The position numbers and the translations under genes were made by a program. DNA of 64,000 nt from Malacoraja senta (taxonomy: Eukaryota): contig CM075995.1 of assembly GCA_038087875.1 (NCBI GenBank), positions 3,908,001 through 3,972,000 on the forward strand. The letters are read 5' to 3'. Positions 10,145 to 57,636 of this stretch are shown here, piece by piece. Within the stretch, counting starts at the first letter, position 1. Each line of letters starts with the position of its first letter. The notes beneath the pieces were generated by a model that worked only from the letters and a program-made list of their open reading frames with translations, searched no databases and was not told the origin of the DNA.

Positions 10145-10344
10145 NNNNNNNNNNNNNNNNNNNNNNNNNNNNNNNNNNNNNNNNNNNNNNNNNNNNNNNN
10201 NNNNNNNNNNNNNNNNNNNNNNNNNNNNNNNNNNNNNNNNNNNNNNNNNNNNNNNNNNNNNNNNNNNNNNNNNNNNNNNNNNNNNNNNNNNNNNNNNNNN
10301 NNNNNNNNNNNNNNNNNNNNNNNNNNNNNNNNNNNNNNNNNNNN
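10145..10344. other. Assembly gap (200 N)
   Basis: N run. Confidence 1.
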
Positions 10345-10889
10345 TACTCTCCCATCAGCCCAGGAATTAACCATGGATGAGACTATCAAAAAATATGAGA
10401 CCCGGGAAATTGTAGCAGTTACAGCAGTGAATAAACTTGATATGGGTAATTTGAGCAGTGGTTTACGCTCACAAGAATTGAAATTACACAAGTGCTGAAA
10501 TTTCTGGGGTCAGTGGTTTGGATGAAGGTTATATATCGTATTCACAACAAAATGTAGCACTCATGTGTAGTGTGCACTTTGAAAGAAATTGTATTCATAA
10601 AAATGCAATAAGACCAAATATTCATCCTAAGTATGCAGGCTCTGCAAACCATGCAATATACAAATGCCTAAATCTGTTTTGGAGAAAATCTAGCAAAGAA
10701 ACTAAAGGATCACCTATGCTGAGCAGAGCGGTGAGAAGGCAGTATCCCTACAGGCGAAATGTGGTGCTGGAGAAGGAACAATCCTATCATTCTCGTATAC
10801 ACGTTGACGTGCTGCACCGAGGATACGTGGAGGTTACAATGTGCCTACTAGAAGGGGACAACAACTGCCGGTGGCAAACCCCGAGGTTA

Positions 10890-12854
10890 GGGGGCTTGGT
10901 CTGGTAAGAAACACAACAAATATTTCACACTCACAAATAGGGGGAAGGTTACGATTCTTCCTAAAAGAATGGCAATCAATAACAAATGATTCATTTATTC
11001 TATGTAGCATTGTAGGATTCAAAATTGAGTTCTCTCCACGTTTGGATCCTCCAATTCAGCATAATTCAAACTGGTCACGGATTTTCTCAAAGGAAGAGAA
11101 TGGGTTGATCAAAGGAGAATTGAAAAACTTTATGCAGAAAAGGATGATATAAATGTCAGGAGAACAACACCATCAGTTTGTGTCAAATATTCTCCTAGGA
11201 ATATTCTCCTAGAAAAGGGATAGTGGATATAGAATCATTTCCGATCTGACAAATCTTAACCTTTATGTACAATAGAAACATTTCAAAATGGAAACATTTA
11301 CTAATGCCATTTAGCTAGTCACAAAGAATTGCTATAAGGCAAGCATAGATCTGCAAAATGCATATTATTCTGCTTGGTCTGATTTCAGCACCAAGATTAT
11401 TCACTAAATTGCTCAAACCAAATTTTAGCTCTGTTAAGACCTGAGGGCCATGTATTAATGGCTTATTTAGATGATATCCTCATTGTAGGGGACACTTTGG
11501 CTGCTGCAAAATTGTCAGTATCCAGTCAAATACATTTTGAGAAATTAGGTTTCATTATTCACCTACAAAAATCTAAATTGTTACCAAGCAAAAAGATTGA
11601 TTACCTAGGGTTCACAATTAACTCCGAACACATGGTAATCACTTTGCCAAAAGATAAAAAGCTGCAGTTAATTGAAGGTTGCATAAAACTCATTAACAAG
11701 GACACACCTTCAATTAGAGAAGTGGCAAGTTTGCTAGGCAAATTAATTGCAGGGTTTCCAGCGGTCACGTTTGGACCATTGCATTATCAATGTTTACAGA
11801 GAGCTAAGGTACAAGCATTGAAAATGAATAGAGGGCATTTTGATAGGCCCATGAAATTAACAATTCAATCCATTACAGAAATAGAATGGTGGATTAATGG
11901 TCTGAAGAAGGGTTTCGGCCCGAAACGTTACCTATTTCCTTCGCTCCATAGATGCTGCTGCACCCGCTGAGTTTCTCCAGCATTTTTGTGTACCTGGTGG
12001 ATTAACAATGTTTCTAATGCTTCCAGAAAAGTTCTGGTAGAAACACCTTCCGTCACTCTACAGACTGATGTAAGTGTGCTGAGTTGGGGCGCTACTAACA
12101 TGATTTCCAGCTGTGGAGGTAGGTGGAATGTGAATGAAGTGCCTTTGCTGGAAAATCTGGGAATCAATTATCTAGAGCTATTAGGCGCATTTTACGGCCT
12201 TAGAGCTTATTGCACTGATATGGGAAATGTGCATGTTCAGGTACAGGTTGACAATACTACAGCTGTAGCATACATAAATCACATGGGTGGTATAAAATCA
12301 GAATCATGTGATAAATTGGCAAATGAAATTTGGACCTGGGGTATTGCCAGAAAAATTTGGCTGTCAGCAATATATTTACCAGGTAAAAATTAATACAATT
12401 GCAGACAAAAGATCACGTAAATTTAATGATAATACAGAATGGATGTTAAATCGGAAAATATTCACACAAATTATCACACAATTTGGAATGCCAGAAATTG
12501 ATCTGTTTGCATCAAGATTGAACCACCAGTTGACTAAGTATGTGTCATGGGAACCTGATCCTGGAGCAGTAGTGGTGGATGCTTTCTCGCTACATTGGGG
12601 TGGTATGTTTCTGTATGCTTTTCCACCATTTTGTTTAATCCACAAATGCATACAGAAAATTAAACAAGATTCAAGCCTCAGGGATTTTGGTAGTACCAGA
12701 TTGGCCTACACAGGTATGATACCCACTGGTGTTAAAAATGATCAAAAACCCCCTTATGGTTATTCCAAAGCAGATTGAACTGCTTGTACACCCTGTGACT
12801 AATGAATCACATCCTTTACATAATCGTATTGGTTTGTTGATTTGCAGATTCTAA
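10890..12854 (+). pseudogene. DIRS pol remnant: reverse transcriptase, RNase H, Dam-like methyltransferase domain
   Basis: IGGRLRFFLKEW; AYLDDILIV; YLGFTINS; INYLELLGA; DNTTAVAYINHMGG; IDLFASRLN..DAFSLHW..YAFPPF. Several stops and frameshifts. Confidence 0.93.
11898..11994 (+). mobile_element. 97-bp Penelope-derived mini-element with hammerhead-like core, inserted in DIRS pol
   Basis: TSD TGGTGGATTAA (11887-11897 / 11995-12005); CTGAAGA-A-GGGT(TTCG)GCCC-GAAA-CGTT. Confidence 0.8.
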
Positions 12855-12859
12855 GAAGG

Positions 12860-13826
12860 CATATCTTGGAAAAGGATTATCAGACCGTACGGTGGATGCT
12901 ATGACAGCAGCCTGGAGGAATAGTACCCAGAAGCAGTACATTTCCTATTTAAAGAAATGGGAGGTGTTTTGTTCAGGAAAGAATATTGCATATAACACAG
13001 TAGAAATTTCAGATGTAATAGAGTTTCTTTCAACTCTACACTATGAATTGAAATTAAGTTGTAGTGCAATTAATACTGCACAAAGTGCACTCTCTGCATA
13101 TTTAAGCAGTGAATCAGAACAAACTCCAATTGGAGAACATCCATGGGTCTGTAGGTTTATGAAAGGAATTTTAATCCTCCCAGACCCAGGTATACAGAAA
13201 TTTGGAATGTAAAAGATGTACTGATGTTCCTAAGGAGTTGGAATCCAGTTGAAACCCTGTCATTATCCAAAATTACCATGAAATTGGTTATGCTCATGGC
13301 ATTAGTTTCAGCGCAGAGAGTTCAAACATTACAGAAACTCAGAATTGATAGAATGAAAGTAGGGCAAAATGCCGTGACATTCTATGTCTATGATTTACTG
13401 AAGCAAAGTAGACCTGGGTCCACAGGATGCAAGTTGGAATTTTTAGCATTACCTACAGATTCACGACTGTGTGTTGTAACATATGTGAAATGTTACATAG
13501 AAACAACAAAAGTTTTAAGAGGCGCCGAATTGGCATTTTTTATTAGTCATAAAAAGCCTCATAAGAAAGTATCAACACAAACAATTTCACGATGGTTGAA
13601 ACAGGTGTTGATTTATTCAGGTATTGATACTGATAAATTTAAATCTCATTCCACGAGGGCGGCATCAACATCAGCGGCCAGGGATTCAGCTTGCCAATAG
13701 ACCTTATTCTCGCGGCCGCAGGATGGGCAAGTGAACAGATGTTTCACAAGTATTACCACAAGGAGATTAAAGATCTCAGAGGGTTTGGTGATGCCGTGCT
13801 GGATACAGTATTAAATCCCCCATTAT
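12860..13826 (+). pseudogene. DIRS tyrosine recombinase remnant
   Basis: ORFs 12892-13212 and 13224-13700: AWRNSTQKQY, LVSAQRV, TISRWLK, SHSTRAASTS; AAGW..F.KYY follows in a shifted frame. Confidence 0.92.
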
Positions 13827-43285: not shown

Positions 43286-43598
43286 GTTTAGTTTAGTTTA
43301 GTTTAGAGATTAGGTTAGAGAAACAGGCCCTTCAACCCACCGAATCCATTCCGACCAGCGATCTCCACACACTAACACAATCCTACACACACTAGGAAAA
43401 ATTTTCAAATTATACCAAGTCAATTGGCCTACAGACTTGAACGTCTTTGGAGTGTGGGAGGAAACCTGAACTCCCAGAGATAACCCACGCAGGTCACGGG
43501 GAGAACATGCAAACTCCATACAGACAGCACCCGTGGTCAGGATTGAACCCAATTCTCTGGCGCTGTGAGGCAGCAACTCTACTGCTGCGCCACCGTGC
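43286..43598 (-). mobile_element. tRNA-derived V-SINE
   Basis: Family motifs. Confidence 0.88.
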
Positions 43599-43639
43599 CA
43601 TTGTTGTCAACATCGGGAGTTTCTGCACTTGTCTCCCAC

Positions 43640-43958
43640 GACAACACGGTGGCACAGCGGTAGAGTTGCTGCCTTACAGTGCTTGCAGCACCGGAGACAC
43701 AGGTTCAATCCTGTCTACGGGTGCTGACCATATGGAATTTGTATGTTCTCCCTGTGACTGCGCGGGTTTCCCCCTGGGTGCTCCGGTGTCCTCCCACACT
43801 CCTAAGACGTACAGGTTTGCAGATTAATTGGCTTGATATAATTATAAACTGTCCCTAGTGTGTGTAAGGACAGTGTTAGTGTGCGGGGATCGCTGGTTGG
43901 CGAGGACTCGATGGGCCGAAGGGCCTGTTTCCGCGCTGTATCTCTAAACTAAACTAAA
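43640..43958 (+). mobile_element. tRNA-derived V-SINE with 14-bp TSD
   Basis: TSD CACTTGTCTCCCAC at 43626-43639 and 43959-43972. Confidence 0.9.
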
Positions 43959-44730: not shown

Positions 44731-44930
44731 NNNNNNNNNNNNNNNNNNNNNNNNNNNNNNNNNNNNNNNNNNNNNNNNNNNNNNNNNNNNNNNNNNNNNN
44801 NNNNNNNNNNNNNNNNNNNNNNNNNNNNNNNNNNNNNNNNNNNNNNNNNNNNNNNNNNNNNNNNNNNNNNNNNNNNNNNNNNNNNNNNNNNNNNNNNNNN
44901 NNNNNNNNNNNNNNNNNNNNNNNNNNNNNN
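44731..44930. other. Assembly gap (200 N)
   Basis: N run. Confidence 1.
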
Positions 44931-47872: not shown

Positions 47873-49628
47873 GTTATAGATTCCTGCAGAATGGAAACAG
47901 GCTCTTCAGCCCAACTTGCCAACACTGACCAAGATGCCCCATCTACACTAGTCCCACCTGCCCGTGTTTGGCCCATATACCTCTATACCTGTCCTATCCA
48001 TGTAGCTGGCCAAATGTATTTTTAAAGTTGTTATAGTACCTGCCTCAACTACTTCCTCTGGCAGTTCGTTCCATGTACCAACCAGGCTCTGTGCGACAAA
48101 GTAGAACGATCTGTAGAAGGATCTCTATCCAAAACATCACCCATTCCTTCTCTCCAGAGATGCTTCCTGTCCCGTTGAGTTACTCCAGCTTTTTGTGTCT
48201 ATCTTGGGATACCACATCCTGACTGATCTTCTGATTAAGACATAGAGATCATAGAAAAATAGGTGCAGGCCATTCGGCCCTTCGAGCCGCCACCACCATT
48301 CAATATGATCATGGCTGATCATCTGAAATCAGTACCCCGTTCCTGCTTTTTCCCCATATCCCTTGATTTCTTTAGCCCATAAGAGCTAAATCTAACTCTC
48401 TCTTTGAGATGTGGGAGGAAAACCCAAAGATCTCAGAGAATATCCACGCGGGTCACGGGGAGAACGTATAAACTGCGTTCAGGCAGTACCTGTAGTCAGG
48501 ATCGAACCTGGTTCTCTGGCGCTGCAAGGCAGGAACTCTTCCGCTGCCCCACCGTGCCGCCCCAGGTGCTGAAATTCTGAGCAAACCACAAAGTGCTGGA
48601 TGAACTCAGCGGGTCAGGCAGCAGTCTGAAGAAGGGTCCTGATCTGAAACATCATCTGTTCATTCCCTGCACAGATGCAGCCTAACCTGCTGAGTTTGTT
48701 TGTGTTTTGCCGGGGATTATCTAACTTGCTTCCAGGGGCACGTTTAGTGTTTGTCCCAGCTCAGATGGAGAAATGCATCACTATGGATTGCATATGCTTC
48801 CCTCCTGCCTTCTTCCCTCAGCTCTCTCTGATGCAGACCCTTGTCAATGCCACATGAGAGTATGTAGTTGTCCAATGTAACTGTCTGAGTTGTCTCAACA
48901 TTGAATTATGGCACTGGGCAAGCACCATAACTTCAGTTTAGTTTAGTTTAGAGATACACTGCCTTCTTCCCTCAGCTCTCTCTGATGCAGACCCTTGGGT
49001 GACGTTTCAGGTCGGGACCCTTCTTCCGACTTCTAGGTTTCAACATTAAATTAATCATATAGAACTCCTTAACTGGGGTAACATAGAAACCACCTGACTG
49101 ATCATTCGACCGAAACGTTGCCTATTTCCTTCGCTCCATAGATGCTGCCTCACCAGCTGAGTTTCTCCAGCATTATTGTCTATCTTCGATTTTCCAGCAT
49201 CTGCAGTTCCTTCTTAAACATAGAACCACCTGAGATTTGTTAACCTGGTGGAAATCAAAGAGACTTTTCAACAGTTTCTTGTCCAAGAAGGTGGTTTAAT
49301 GAGGAATGCTGTGGGTCTGGAGGAGCCATTAACAAAAGCCAATCTTTACAGTCTTCAGCGATATCTGCTTTAGGAATAGGGTTGAGACACTCGAGAATAA
49401 GGTTGAGACAACTTAACCAAGTAACTTTTTCACACAAAGGGTGGAGGGCGTATGGAACGAGCTTCCAAAGGAGGAGGACTATTGCAACGTTTAAGAAAAA
49501 ACTAGACAGGTACATGGAGAGGACAGGTTTGGGGGGATGTGGGCCAAACACAGGCAGGTAGGAATAGTGTAGATCGGACTTGTTGGTCGGTGTGGCTAAG
49601 TTGGACCAAAGGGCCTGTTTCCACACTA

Positions 49629-51245
49629 CAGTGGCTTGCAAAGGTTTTCATACCCCTTGAACTTTTCCACATTTTGTCACGTTACAACCACAAACGTAAA
49701 TGTATTTTATTGGGATTTTATGTGTTAGACCAACACAAAGTGGTGCATAATTGTGAAGTGGAAGGAAAATGATACATGGTTTTCAAATTTTTTTACAAAT
49801 AAAAAACTGAAAAGTGTGGCGTGCAAAAGTATTCAGCCCCCCTGAGTCAATACTTTGTAGAACCACCTTTCACTGCAATTACAGCTGCAAGTCTTTTGGG
49901 GTATGTCTCTACCAGCTTTGCACATCTAGAGACTGAAATTTTTGCCAATTCTTCTTTGCAAAATAGCTCAAGCTCAGTCAGATTGGATGGAGTGCGTCTG
50001 TGAACAGCAATTTTCAAGTCTTGCCAGAGATTCTCAATTGGATTTAGGTCTGGACTTTGACTGGTCCATTCTAACACATGAATATGCTTTGATCTAAACC
50101 ATTCCATTGTAGCTCTGGCTGTATGTTTAGGGTCGTTGTCTTGCTGGAAGGTGAACCTCCGCCCCAGTCTCAAGTCTTTTGCAGACTCTAACATGTTTTC
50201 TTCCAAGATTGCCCTGTATTTGGCTCCATCGATCTTCCCATCAACTCTGACCAACTTCCCTGTCCCTGCTGAAGAAAAGCATCCCCACAGCATGATGCTG
50301 CCACCACCATGTTTCACAGTGGGGATGGTGTGTTCAGGGTGATGTGCAGTGTTAGGTTTCCGCCACACATAGCGTTTTGCATTTAGGCCAAACACTTCAA
50401 TTTTGGTCTCATCTGACCAGAGCACCTTCCTCCACATGTTTGCTGTGTCCCCCACATGGCTTGTGGCAAACTGCAAACGGGACTTCTTATGGCTTTTTTT
50501 CAACAATGGCTTACTTCTTGCCTCTCTTCCATAAAGGCCCGATTTGTGGAGTGCACGACTAATAGTTGTCCTGTGGACAGATTCTCCCACCTGAGCTGTG
50601 GATCTCTGCAGCTCCTCCAAAGTTACCATGGGCCTCTTGGCTGCTTCTCTGCTCAATGCTCTCCTTGCCCGGCCTGTCAGTTTAGGTGGACGGCCATGTC
50701 TTGGTAGGTTTGCAGTTGTGCCATACTCTTTCCATTTTCGGATGATGGATTGAACAGTGCTCCGTGAGATGTTCAAAGCTTGGGATATTTTTTTATAACC
50801 TATCCCTGCTTTAAACTTCTCCACAACTTTATCCCTGACCTGTCTGGTGTGTTCGTTGGGCTTCATGATGCTGCTTGTTCACTAATGTTCTCTAACAAAC
50901 CTCTGAGGCCTTCACAGAACAGCTGTATTTATACTGAGATTAGATTACACACAAGTGGACTCTATTTACTAATTAGGTGACTTCTGAAGGCAATTGGTTG
51001 CACTGGATTTTATTTAGGGGTATCAGAGTAAAGGGGGCTGAATACTTTTGCACACCACACTTTTCAGTTTTTTATTTGTAAAAAAATTTGAAAACCATGT
51101 ATCATTTTCCTTCCACTTCACAATTATGCGCCACTTTGTGTTGGTCTATCACATAAAATCTCAATAAAATACATTTACGTTTGTGGTTATAACGTGACAA
51201 AATGTGGAAAAGTTCAAGGGGTATGAATACTTTTGCAAGCCACTG
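49629..51245 (-). mobile_element. Full-length Tc1 transposon, IR/DR type
   Basis: TA|CAGTGGCTTGCAAA...TTTGCAAGCCACTG|TA; about 215-bp TIRs with outer and inner GCAAAAGTATTCA..CCCC direct repeats; inserted in a CR1 tail. Confidence 0.97.
49847..50866 (-). CDS. Tc1 DD34E transposase, 339 aa, uninterrupted
   Basis: Paired-like HTH, GRPPKL, WSDETK, FQQDNDPKH, SPDLNPIE; 34 residues between the second D and E. Confidence 0.96.
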   Translation of the reverse strand: MKPNEHTRQVRDKVVEKFKAGIGYKKISQALNISRSTVQSIIRKWKEYGTTANLPRHGRPPKLTGRARRALSREAAKRPMVTLEELQRSTAQVGESVHRTTISRALHKSGLYGREARSKPLLKKSHKKSRLQFATSHVGDTANMWRKVLWSDETKIEVFGLNAKRYVWRKPNTAHHPEHTIPTVKHGGGSIMLWGCFSSAGTGKLVRVDGKIDGAKYRAILEENMLESAKDLRLGRRFTFQQDNDPKHTARATMEWFRSKHIHVLEWTSQSPDLNPIENLWQDLKIAVHRRTPSNLTELELFCKEELAKISVSRCAKLVETYPKRLAAVIAVKGGSTKY

Positions 51246-51519
51246 TATATGACTCTGTGACTCAATGACTCTATGACTATGAGTTTATGACTCTTAATAC
51301 CAACTCTCCCTACCATCCAATTCCATCACTGAGCTCTTGTTCCTTTCCTTGATGCTGCTGCATCCTCCAGCACCGTAATTCCTCATACCCACCTCAGGTG
51401 ACTCATTCTGCAATGCACCATCCTCCAATTCTCCACCCCCTAACGCCCTATTATCCTCCACTCTCAGATTTGGTAGATATGTTCCAACTACTCAGTTTAT
51501 GTATGGGGGGGATATTAAC

Positions 51520-56398: not shown

Positions 56399-56523
56399 TA
56401 AAATAGAATTTTAAAATAGAACTGGTGAAGATGATCAATACAATCCACTATTGCTTGTGGTTTCATTGCAATTTTGGAGGTTACTCCAGTTTATTCCATT
56501 ATGATCACGGGCAAGTATGGCCA

Positions 56524-57021
56524 ATACTTACCTGGCAGGGGAGAATCGGTGGTCATGATGGCCGATCTCAAGGGACGAGGTTATCCCATTGCACATCGTG
56601 TGTGCTGACGCCTGCGATGTCCCAAAATTAAGGTGGTGGGTGTATGGAACAAGCTGCCAGAGGAGGTAGTTGAGGCTGGGTCTATCCCACCGTTTAAGAA
56701 ACAGTTAGACAGGTACATGGATAGGACAGGTTTGGACAGATATGGACCAAACGCAAGCAGGTGGCACTAGTGTAGCTGGGACATTTGTGGCTGAAGAGGG
56801 GTTTCGGCCCGAAACGTTGCCTATTTCCTTCGCTCCATAGATGCTGCTGCACCCGCTGAGTTTCTCCAGCATTTTTGTGTACCTTGTAGCTGGGACATGT
56901 TGGTCGGTGTGGGCAAGTTGGGCCTAAGGGCCTGTTTCCACACCGTATCACTCTATAACTCTATGACTAAATGCGGGGGTACTCAACTGCAAACGCGTGG
57001 TAGTGGGGGACTGGGTTCGCG
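56524..57021 (+). pseudogene. RNU1: U1 snRNA-derived sequence (variant), split by a CR1 insertion at 56629-56968
   Basis: ATACTTACCTGGCAGGGGAGA 5' end; CCATTGCAC (U1A loop); CTGCGAT.TCCC.AAAT. Resumes at 56969 with AAATGCGGG..CTC.ACTGCA..GTGGTAGTGGGGGACTG.GTTCGCG. Sm site degenerate. Confidence 0.9.
56785..56884 (+). mobile_element. 100-bp Penelope-derived hammerhead-like mini-element
   Basis: 14-bp TSD TGTAGCTGGGACAT (56771-56784 / 56885-56898); nearly identical to 11898-11994. Confidence 0.85.
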
Positions 57022-57320
57022 GCCACGGTGGCGCAGCGGTAAAGTTGTTGCCTTCCACCGCATGCAGCGCCGGAGACCCGGGTTCGATCCCGATTACAGG
57101 TGCTTGTCTGCACGGAGTTTGTACGTTCTCCCCGTGACCCGCTTTCTCCGAGATCTTCGGTTTCTTCCCGCACTCCAAAGACATACAGGTATGTAGGTTA
57201 ATTAGCTTGGTGTATGTGTAAAATTGTCCCTAATGGGCGTGGGATAGTGTTAATGTGCGGGGATCACTGGTCGGTGTGGACTCGGTGAACTGAAGGGCCT
57301 GATTCCGCGTTGTATCTCTT
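57021..57320 (+). mobile_element. tRNA-derived V-SINE directly abutting the U1 3' part
   Basis: GGCCACGGTGGCGCAGCGG head starts where U1 similarity stops. Confidence 0.9.
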
Positions 57321-57636
57321 AAAAGAAAAGTCTATTTTGCAGTCATGTAACTGCACTCACCAGGAACAAGGGATGCAATGCCTGGAAGTGGGGCACATAG
57401 TCAGGATCAAGTGGCTGCTAATCAGCCAGAATAAAGTGAAGGATAATGTTCCTGGAGCACTGATCCAATGGTGCACTTTCACCCCAACTTGAGAAGTCCA
57501 CCAGCGTGACATTCATTTCCTCCAACAGACAGACATTGACGTGATTATTTTTCAGTGTAACTGCCAATTAGTGCCGAATTATGGTGTGTTGTGGACCTGG
57601 TAGTGATAAAAAGGAGACTTGGTCGACTGAAACTCA

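What the first reader, a model, noticed from the sequence alone, without database searches (positions are those of the whole stretch)
56524..57320. Variant U1 snRNA fused directly to a tRNA-SINE: chimeric retrocopy or U1-headed SINE
Seen: removing the CR1 insert (56629-56968, AAAT on both sides) restores about 155 nt of U1 lacking only the last ~10 nt, joined with no spacer to a V-SINE head. Stem-loop I differs from canonical U1 but still pairs (AUCGGU/GCCGAU, GAG/CUC) around loop GGUCAUGAUG (canonical GAUCACGAAG). The 5' splice-site-pairing end is perfect and the Sm site is lost. Known: snRNA-retroposon chimeras arise by template switching, and U1/U2-derived SINEs are described in crocodilians. 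Inference: the compensatory stem suggests the source was a functional divergent U1 variant; the fusion may define a composite SINE family.
Basis: partly seen in the sequence, partly recalled or inferred. Interest (0 to 1): 0.7.

Follow-up and report, generated by a model that had tools for sequence, protein, structure and literature searches.

The report
Dead U1 snRNA–SINE chimeric retrocopy
This is a broken, apparently one-off copy of a splicing RNA (U1) fused to a common jumping element, a known kind of genomic fossil, but it preserves a multi-copy U1 type whose first hairpin is rewritten yet still pairs.

Summary
U1 positions 1-154 (last 10 nt missing) abut a full-length tRNA-headed SINE through a 3-nt overlap. 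The missing U1 end is not behind the SINE, promoter marks are absent, and U1 relatives stop matching at +1. The best reading is a dead template-switch retrocopy (0.65), already present in the ancestor of a related species. A composite U1-headed SINE family is not supported: the U1 3' part lay at single-copy depth, and no other SINE in the window carries U1. That test is weak, because repeats flooded it. The stem-loop I variant is real. It has three double-sided compensatory pairs, and both partners of the loop-closing A29·A36 pair are changed while the U1-70K contact bases stay. U1-like contigs at about 10-20 times single-copy depth lie across this region in three related organisms and restore the broken base of the stem. 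No intact source gene or expression was shown, and whether this is a minor variant or the lineage's main U1 is open. It is a known kind of object with a modest lead.

The parts
56449..56523 (+). Unique 5' flank without promoter marks; shared with the orthologous site of organism G
   Evidence: No ACC core at -59 (13 of 14 reference U1 loci have it) and no C at -1 (14 of 14 have it). Only single-copy cover at 56490 and 56521
56524..56628 (+). U1 snRNA positions 1-105: intact 5' splice-site arm, stem-loop I, stem-loop II, 5' half of stem-loop III
56539..56571 (+). Divergent stem-loop I: 9 of 11 pairs formed; 23-42, 25-40 and 26-39 changed on both sides; loop G29/U36 in place of A29/A36; 16-48 and 17-47 broken in this copy but restored in paralogous contigs
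   Evidence: (table 3)
56629..56968 (+). 5'-truncated CR1-like LINE 3' end inserted in the loop of stem-loop III, with a 4-bp duplication (56625-28 / 56969-72)
   Evidence: 75-92% identical to other window copies; open reading of an ORF2-like C-terminus (the clade label is recalled, 0 Pfam hits); paralogous U1 contigs stop matching at 56628
56785..56884 (+). Younger 100-bp short repeat nested in the CR1-like fragment, with a 14-bp duplication (56771-84 / 56885-98)
   Evidence: 96.9% identical to 11902-11998; joint with 14 shared letters in 8, 6, 9 and 10 contigs of the 4 runs
56973..57021 (+). U1 positions 106-154; Sm site degenerate (56992-57000); ends in the 3' arm of stem-loop IV, last 10 nt missing
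   Evidence: 1 mismatch in positions 132-154
57019..57021 (+). 3-nt overlap (GCG) readable as U1 152-154 or as the first bases of the SINE
57019..57334 (+). Full-length tRNA-headed SINE (V-SINE/HE1-like by inference): A box 57029-39, B box 57081-91, 3' tail shared with the CR1-like LINE, short A-rich end
   Evidence: 87% identical to the window consensus, the 14 other copies 79-92%
57335..57500 (+). Unique 3' flank without the missing U1 end; joined to the SINE tail in organism G too
   Evidence: best match to the missing 10 nt is 5 of 10 within 57315-57345, the background mode; contig 16 spans 57258-57500

Best explanation
A single, dead chimeric retrocopy. A CR1-type LINE reverse transcriptase began on a SINE RNA, which carries the LINE's 3' tail, and copied it to its 5' end. 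It then jumped through a 3-nt overlap onto a U1 snRNA inside stem-loop IV and copied it to +1. The product inserted without promoter or 3' box, before the window's organism and organism G split. A CR1-like fragment later inserted into stem-loop III, and a short repeat into that fragment. The U1 template belonged to a real multi-copy U1 type with a compensated stem-loop I. Shown: the anatomy, the order of the two nested insertions, U1 and SINE at the orthologous site in G, and multi-copy U1-like sequence across stem-loop I. Inferred: the template switch itself, the enzyme, and that the source RNA was functional.
For: The missing 3' end is not behind the SINE. Paralogous contigs align from 56522-56526 and no other contig shares the upstream flank, so the 5' border is the RNA's start. 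No ACC at -59 and no C at -1. The SINE is complete, on the same strand, with a 3-nt overlap, and shares its tail with the CR1-like LINE. Precedent: U6 chimeras with L2-mobilised SINEs in platypus and anole, and stringent LINEs make snRNA copies only as chimeras (PMC4476161, section 10 and passages). U1 5' additions to SINEU-2 have variable 3' truncation and occasional short junction homology (PMC4494074). The chance that a SINE head lands in the last 15 nt of a given U1 copy on the same strand is about 0.0016. Source type: random placement of 6 stem changes keeps all 5 pairs with 3 double changes in 0.36% of trials. The loop changes hit 29 and 36, which pair with each other in the human crystal structure, while G28, U30, C31, A32 and G34 stay (PMC4383343 passages; chance 1/36). 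In one search the five listed paralog differences in the U1 5' part (47, 48, 49, 58, 72) all revert to the reference letter, and none of the nine stem-loop I diagnostic sites (23, 25, 26, 29, 36, 39, 40, 42, 45) is among the 40 rows shown.
Against: No target-site duplication flanks the composite (best 5 matches, background level), though only 1 of 10 ordinary SINE copies has one, so this says little. This same U1 copy took an independent CR1 insertion, so chance insertions into it do occur. In human, U1 rarely forms template-switch chimeras (0 U1/L1 among 33 U1 copies; PMC4476161 passage). No listed contig in a relative spans the U1/SINE junction or shows the empty site. The promoter comparison uses non-independent loci from another fish lineage (teleost-like by my recall). 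154 difference rows and 1860 joints were hidden, and the tool warned that some were not counted.
Confidence: 0.65

Rival explanations
1. Two independent events. A U1 retropseudogene (full-length or 3'-truncated 'tailless') inserted first. A SINE later inserted at its 3' end, with deletion of 10 or more target bases, using GCG as end-joining microhomology.
For: The region is repeat-dense (44% self-matching) and this U1 took another insertion. Target-site truncation is described for non-LTR elements (PMC4494074 introduction) and tailless snRNA retrocopies exist (PMC2912911 passages). Some paralogous U1 contigs carry indels, as dispersed pseudogenes would (table 4).
Against: It needs a landing in the last ~15 nt on the same strand (0.0016 per copy) plus loss of the U1 end, of which no trace lies downstream. 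Both parts were already in place in organism G.
Confidence: 0.24
2. The locus is one copy of a U1-headed V-SINE family, like crocodilian SINEU, spread from a master copy driven by an upstream promoter.
For: The structure is retrotransposition-competent in principle: the LINE-type tail is present, and the U1 part has no T4 run. About 10-13 distinct U1-like contigs per run cover 56570. The 3' continuation of those contigs was not visible.
Against: At 56992 the depth is 40.3 in the own species (single copy), 15 in G (1 contig) and 0 in B. There is no second U1 match in the window. The SINE's internal A/B boxes would start transcription downstream of U1 (established Pol III type-2 promoter logic).
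Confidence: 0.06
3. A once-functional variant U1 gene at its own locus, killed by a SINE insertion that deleted its end and 3' box.
For: The 5' end is perfect (0 of 21 changes; p 0.05 under 13% decay), and the A-rich stretch after the SINE body loosely resembles the A-rich half of the 3' flanks of the reference genes.
Against: No ACC core in the 110 nt upstream, no C at -1 and no octamer in 300 nt upstream. The octamer was also absent from the reference loci, so it says nothing. No paralog shares the upstream flank. The A-rich stretch equally fits the SINE tail.
Confidence: 0.05

Closest known systems
snRNA-SINE/LINE template-switch chimeras (U6-Mon-1 in platypus, U6-AnolisSINE2 in anole, U1-Alu in human; PMC4476161 section 10 and passages; PMC4494074 discussion)
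   Same: snRNA at the 5' end, non-LTR element at the 3' end, same strand, no spacer, no promoter, LINE-type tail supplied by the SINE, short or no duplication
   Different: U1 rather than U6; U1 nearly full-length (1-154) and the SINE full-length; a CR1-like partner; probably a cartilaginous fish (inferred from the repeats, not tested against named sequences)
SINEU of crocodilians (PMC4494074, parts 1-4 of 5 read)
   Same: U1-derived 5' part, 3'-truncated, with short junction homology
   Different: SINEU families have hundreds to thousands of copies, a polyA tail, no tRNA head and a Tx1-Mar partner. Here the evidence points to one copy with a tRNA-headed SINE and a CR1-like tail
V-SINE HE1 / HER1 LINE pair of sharks and rays (PMC3747384 table row, PMC4824008 passages)
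   Same: tRNA-type A and B boxes, about 300 bp, 3' tail shared with a CR1-like LINE, very abundant
Developmental U1 variants such as zebrafish maternal-type U1 (bioRxiv 10.1101/858944, parts 1-2 of 3; figures and supplements not seen)
   Same: The splice-site-pairing end is unchanged, the differences concentrate in a stem-loop with co-evolved pairs, and the gene is multi-copy
   Different: The zebrafish sequences could not be compared. No expression data exist here, and the type may be the lineage's main U1

Membership tests
Functional U1 snRNA gene (RF00003) | Full-length match above the gathering score | tested here: not met
   50.1 against 69.5 bits; interrupted; last 10 nt missing
Functional U1 snRNA gene (RF00003) | Intact 5' splice-site-pairing arm | tested here: met
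   0 of 16 mismatches to 9 of 9 references
Functional U1 snRNA gene (RF00003) | Sm site with a U-tract | tested here: not met
   AACGCGUGG against AAUUU(C/A/G)UGG in 10 of 10 references; human nonamer in PMC4383343
Functional U1 snRNA gene (RF00003) | PSE near -60 and 3' box | tested here: not met
   No ACC core at -59 (13 of 14 references have it), no C at -1 (14 of 14); the 3' flank is replaced by the SINE. The references come from another lineage
Template-switch snRNA chimera | snRNA 5' of a retroelement, same strand, no spacer, starting at the RNA's +1 | tested here: met
Template-switch snRNA chimera | One duplication flanking the whole composite | tested here: inconclusive
   None found, but 9 of 10 ordinary copies of this SINE lack one too
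Template-switch snRNA chimera | Empty orthologous site lacking both parts | tested here: inconclusive
   Organism G has both parts; organism B has only patchy flank cover; 1860 joints hidden
SINEU-like U1-headed SINE family | Many copies sharing one U1/body junction with different flanks | tested here: not met
   Single-copy depth at 56992; no other U1 match in a window with 14 other head-bearing SINE copies. Sensitivity is limited: copies with an intact Sm site may not have been laid across 56992
SINEU-like U1-headed SINE family | 3' polyA tail, no tRNA head | tested here: not met
   A and B boxes present and a LINE-type tail
V-SINE (HE1) | tRNA-derived head with A and B boxes | tested here: met
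   57029-39 and 57081-91 (box patterns recalled); ARAGORN tRNA genes in the window
V-SINE (HE1) | 3' tail shared with a CR1-type LINE | tested here: met
   Alignment of 3 SINE tails and 3 LINE tails; the clade name of the LINE is recalled
V-SINE (HE1) | 80-bp central V-domain | not testable with these tools
   The domain is shown only in figures in the papers read
Developmentally regulated U1 variant class | Intact genes and stage-specific expression | not testable with these tools
   No genome held; no RNA holder listed

The most novel reading that the evidence does not exclude
This fish lineage keeps a second, expressed class of U1 snRNA, possibly maternal or germline. Its stem-loop I is rewritten by compensatory changes, and its U1-70K loop is closed by G29-U36 instead of the A29·A36 pair found in all 15 reference loci. 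It exists beside a higher-copy class that did not lie on stem-loop I (about 390 times single depth at 56595 in organism B). The retrocopy is a germline fossil of that RNA.
Probability: 0.3. Interest if true: 0.6.

Novelty: new member of a known kind. Interest (0 to 1): 0.33.

Why it matters
The chimera extends snRNA template switching, known for U6 with L1, L2 and RTE partners, to U1 with a CR1-mobilised tRNA SINE in what is probably a cartilaginous fish. It is a dead locus and ordinary in kind. Its value is as a fossil. It records a U1 with covarying changes in the U1-70K binding hairpin that is multi-copy in three related organisms. If that class is expressed beside a canonical U1, it would widen the 'alternative spliceosome' question beyond zebrafish. 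If it is the lineage's main U1, it is a natural test of which loop contacts U1-70K needs.

Tried and rejected
Own-genome search: no genome is held, so a genome-wide junction count was not possible. Rfam on the 3' piece alone gave no U1 hit (3 chance hits); a profile of fetched U1 genes did find it. A variant stem-loop I pattern gave 0 matches in metagenome contigs, which is uninformative for a vertebrate. Run search: no RNA holder listed. Run X18 was 'probably DNA' with depth under 3 on U1; no evidence on expression either way. Laying contigs at 80% was flooded by SINE and LINE copies. No joint skipping the CR1-like insert or the SINE is among the 15 shown of about 1875, which is not evidence of absence. 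Organism B has no cover at 56474-56510 and at 56992; not interpreted. Folding z-scores were not significant. The duplication test was uninformative, as was the octamer test, which was absent from the references too. Earlier findings: 0 returned in 3 look-ups. Host gene: 120 of 229 open frames in mostly unique sequence (plus P0001) were scanned against Pfam; only transposon-type domains hit, so no host gene was found, though short exons would be missed. Literature searches found no report of this U1 type or chimera in cartilaginous fish (listings only; open-licence library, so subscription papers and Repbase/Dfam entries are not covered). The supplements of bioRxiv 10.1101/858944, which hold the zebrafish variant sequences, were not seen and could bear on the novelty of the U1 type. 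Rejected: a simple SINE insertion that left the U1 end downstream, and stem-loop I differences as neutral decay (10 of 22 differ; p 2e-4 at 13% decay). L011 and L013 (non-colinear) and four cut-off loci were left out of the 9-gene profile.

Full report
Observation. Rfam U1 matches from 56524 at 50.1 bits, E 2.8e-11, below the gathering score; nothing in the window reaches a gathering score. A scan of metagenome contigs with the first 21 bases returned 15 loci, 11 of which score as U1 above gathering. A profile from 9 colinear full-length ones matches U1 1-105 at 56524-56628 and U1 100-154 at 56967-57021. With the insert left out it matches 1-154 in one piece (E 4.7e-27), and it finds nothing else in the window. 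Ten bases are missing at the 3' end.

Anatomy. The insert 56629-56968 is flanked by AAAT. It is a 5'-truncated LINE 3' end, 75-92% identical to other window copies, with a short open frame that I recognise from recall as a CR1 ORF2 C-terminus; Pfam gave no hit for it. Inside it sits a 100-bp repeat with a 14-bp duplication, 96.9% identical to a copy at 11902. Contigs of all 4 laid runs show the LINE without it. The SINE is complete to about its first base, has A and B boxes, is 87% identical to the window consensus like its 14 aligned relatives (79-92%), and shares its 3' tail with the LINE. That matches the HE1/HER1 pairing of sharks and rays (PMC3747384, table row), which is the basis for inferring a cartilaginous fish. 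The V-domain could not be tested. Three bases (57019-57021) can be read as U1 or as SINE.

Is it RNA-derived? Upstream there is no ACC core at -59 (13 of 14 reference loci have it) and no C at -1 (14 of 14 do); the references are related to one another and come from another lineage. In the laid contigs, paralogous U1 pieces start matching at 56522-56526, and at 56490 and 56521 only the locus itself and one ortholog lie. The missing 10 nt are not behind the SINE: the best match is 5 of 10 in the next 31 bases, the background mode. No duplication flanks the composite, but 9 of 10 ordinary SINE copies lack one too.

Copy number and age. No genome was held. Of 24 listed runs, 2 held at least half of the words, both from organism A. 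Four runs were laid at 80% likeness: X1 (A), X3 (B), X11 and X18 (G). X1 may be the source sample and is not independent. Flank depth in X1 is 33.5-41.8. At 56992, in the U1 3' part, depth is 40.3 in X1, 15 in X11 (one contig) and 0 in X3, so the Sm-less 3' part is single-copy. Copies with an intact Sm site might not have been laid there, and the repeat flood hid most joints, so this is moderate evidence against a composite family. In G one contig bridges the 5' flank and U1 (56449-56632, 14 differences) and another bridges the SINE tail and 3' flank (57258-57500). Both parts therefore predate the A/G split, though no listed contig spans the junction. The first contig ends 4 bases into the LINE position, a weak hint that G lacks the LINE insert.

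Stem-loop I. Against the references, pairs 23-42, 25-40 and 26-39 changed on both sides and 19-45 became a pair. Random placement of the 6 inner-stem changes gives this in 0.36% of trials, and 10 of 22 differences exceed 13% decay (p 2e-4). The loop differs at 29 and 36, which are A in 15 of 15 references. In the human structure these two bases pair with each other to close the loop, while G28, U30, C31, A32 and G34 contact U1-70K (PMC4383343, passages). All of those are kept. In one search, 13, 11 and 10 other contigs cover 56570 in A, B and G (total depth about 13, 19 and 10 times single). Mean depth over 56548-56569 is at least about 21, 4 and 17 times single. The depths are summed contig depths, a rough guide only. 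The five listed differences in the U1 5' part (positions 47, 48, 49, 58, 72) all revert to reference letters and restore the two broken basal pairs. None of the nine diagnostic stem-loop I sites appears among the 40 rows shown, which seem to be those with a share above about 0.82; 154 rows were hidden. So a multi-copy U1 type with this kind of hairpin exists in all three organisms, but its exact letters, intact genes and expression are not shown. A class at about 390 times single depth in B and 64 times in A lies on 56595 but not on stem-loop I. This suggests that the type is a minority class, although unread or filtered contigs could produce the same picture, and G shows flat depth. The inner stem also resembles the Rfam consensus, so it may be ancestral rather than derived.

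Mechanism. The best reading (0.65) is a template switch from the end of a SINE RNA to U1, by the LINE whose tail the SINE carries, followed by two nested insertions. Precedent: U6 chimeras with L2-mobilised SINEs, and the point that stringent LINEs make snRNA copies only as chimeras (PMC4476161, section 10 and passages); U1 additions to SINEU-2 (PMC4494074, parts 1-4 of 5). Against it, U1 chimeras are rare in human. The main rival (0.24) is a later SINE insertion with target deletion at the end of a U1 pseudogene; it needs a 0.0016-per-copy landing, but this U1 did take another insertion. A composite family (0.06) and a killed gene (0.05) are unlikely. Any transcript would lack the Sm site and 3' end; human U1 mutants lacking protein-binding sites accumulate poorly (PMC13573567, section 8), so the locus is probably inert (inference).

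Novelty. snRNA-SINE chimeras and U1 variants with co-evolved stems are known kinds (also bioRxiv 10.1101/858944, parts 1-2 of 3). Seven searches of the open library found no report for cartilaginous fish (listings only), and the scan's own notes held nothing. Verdict: a real but ordinary chimeric pseudogene, with a modest lead on a divergent U1 type. Interest 0.33.

Noticed in passing
window 49627-51247 (ORF 49847-50866, - strand): A Tc1/Sleeping-Beauty-like transposon with an uninterrupted 339-aa ATG-to-stop transposase frame (HTH_SB, HTH_Tnp_Tc3_2, DDE_3) and 222-nt inverted repeats that are 95% complementary. It looks young and structurally complete.
   Followed up: partly
window about 10482-13697 (+): Reverse transcriptase, a methyltransferase-like stretch and tyrosine recombinase domains in successive broken frames, consistent with a decayed DIRS-type retrotransposon (label inferred).
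   Followed up: no
window 56785-56884 and more than 30 matches across the window: An abundant short repeat of about 100 bp, partly palindromic (hits on both strands), which inserted here with a 14-bp duplication, unlike the SINE and the CR1-like element. Not classified.
   Followed up: partly
window 56992-57000: The three U's of the Sm site are replaced in a row while positions 132-154 have only 1 mismatch. One contig of organism G lies across this spot with an extra C, so the change is probably older than the A/G split. It is unexplained whether it was in the source RNA.
   Followed up: partly
window 43303-43945: Two SINE copies head to head; the one at 43640-43945 has a perfect 14-bp duplication, the only one among 10 copies tested.
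   Followed up: no
window 10145-10344 and 44731-44930: Two assembly gaps of 200 N each.
   Followed up: no
L011 9-429: A U1 5' fragment (to about position 46) joined to unrelated sequence in a metagenome contig, possibly a U1-targeted insertion or a truncated copy.
   Followed up: no
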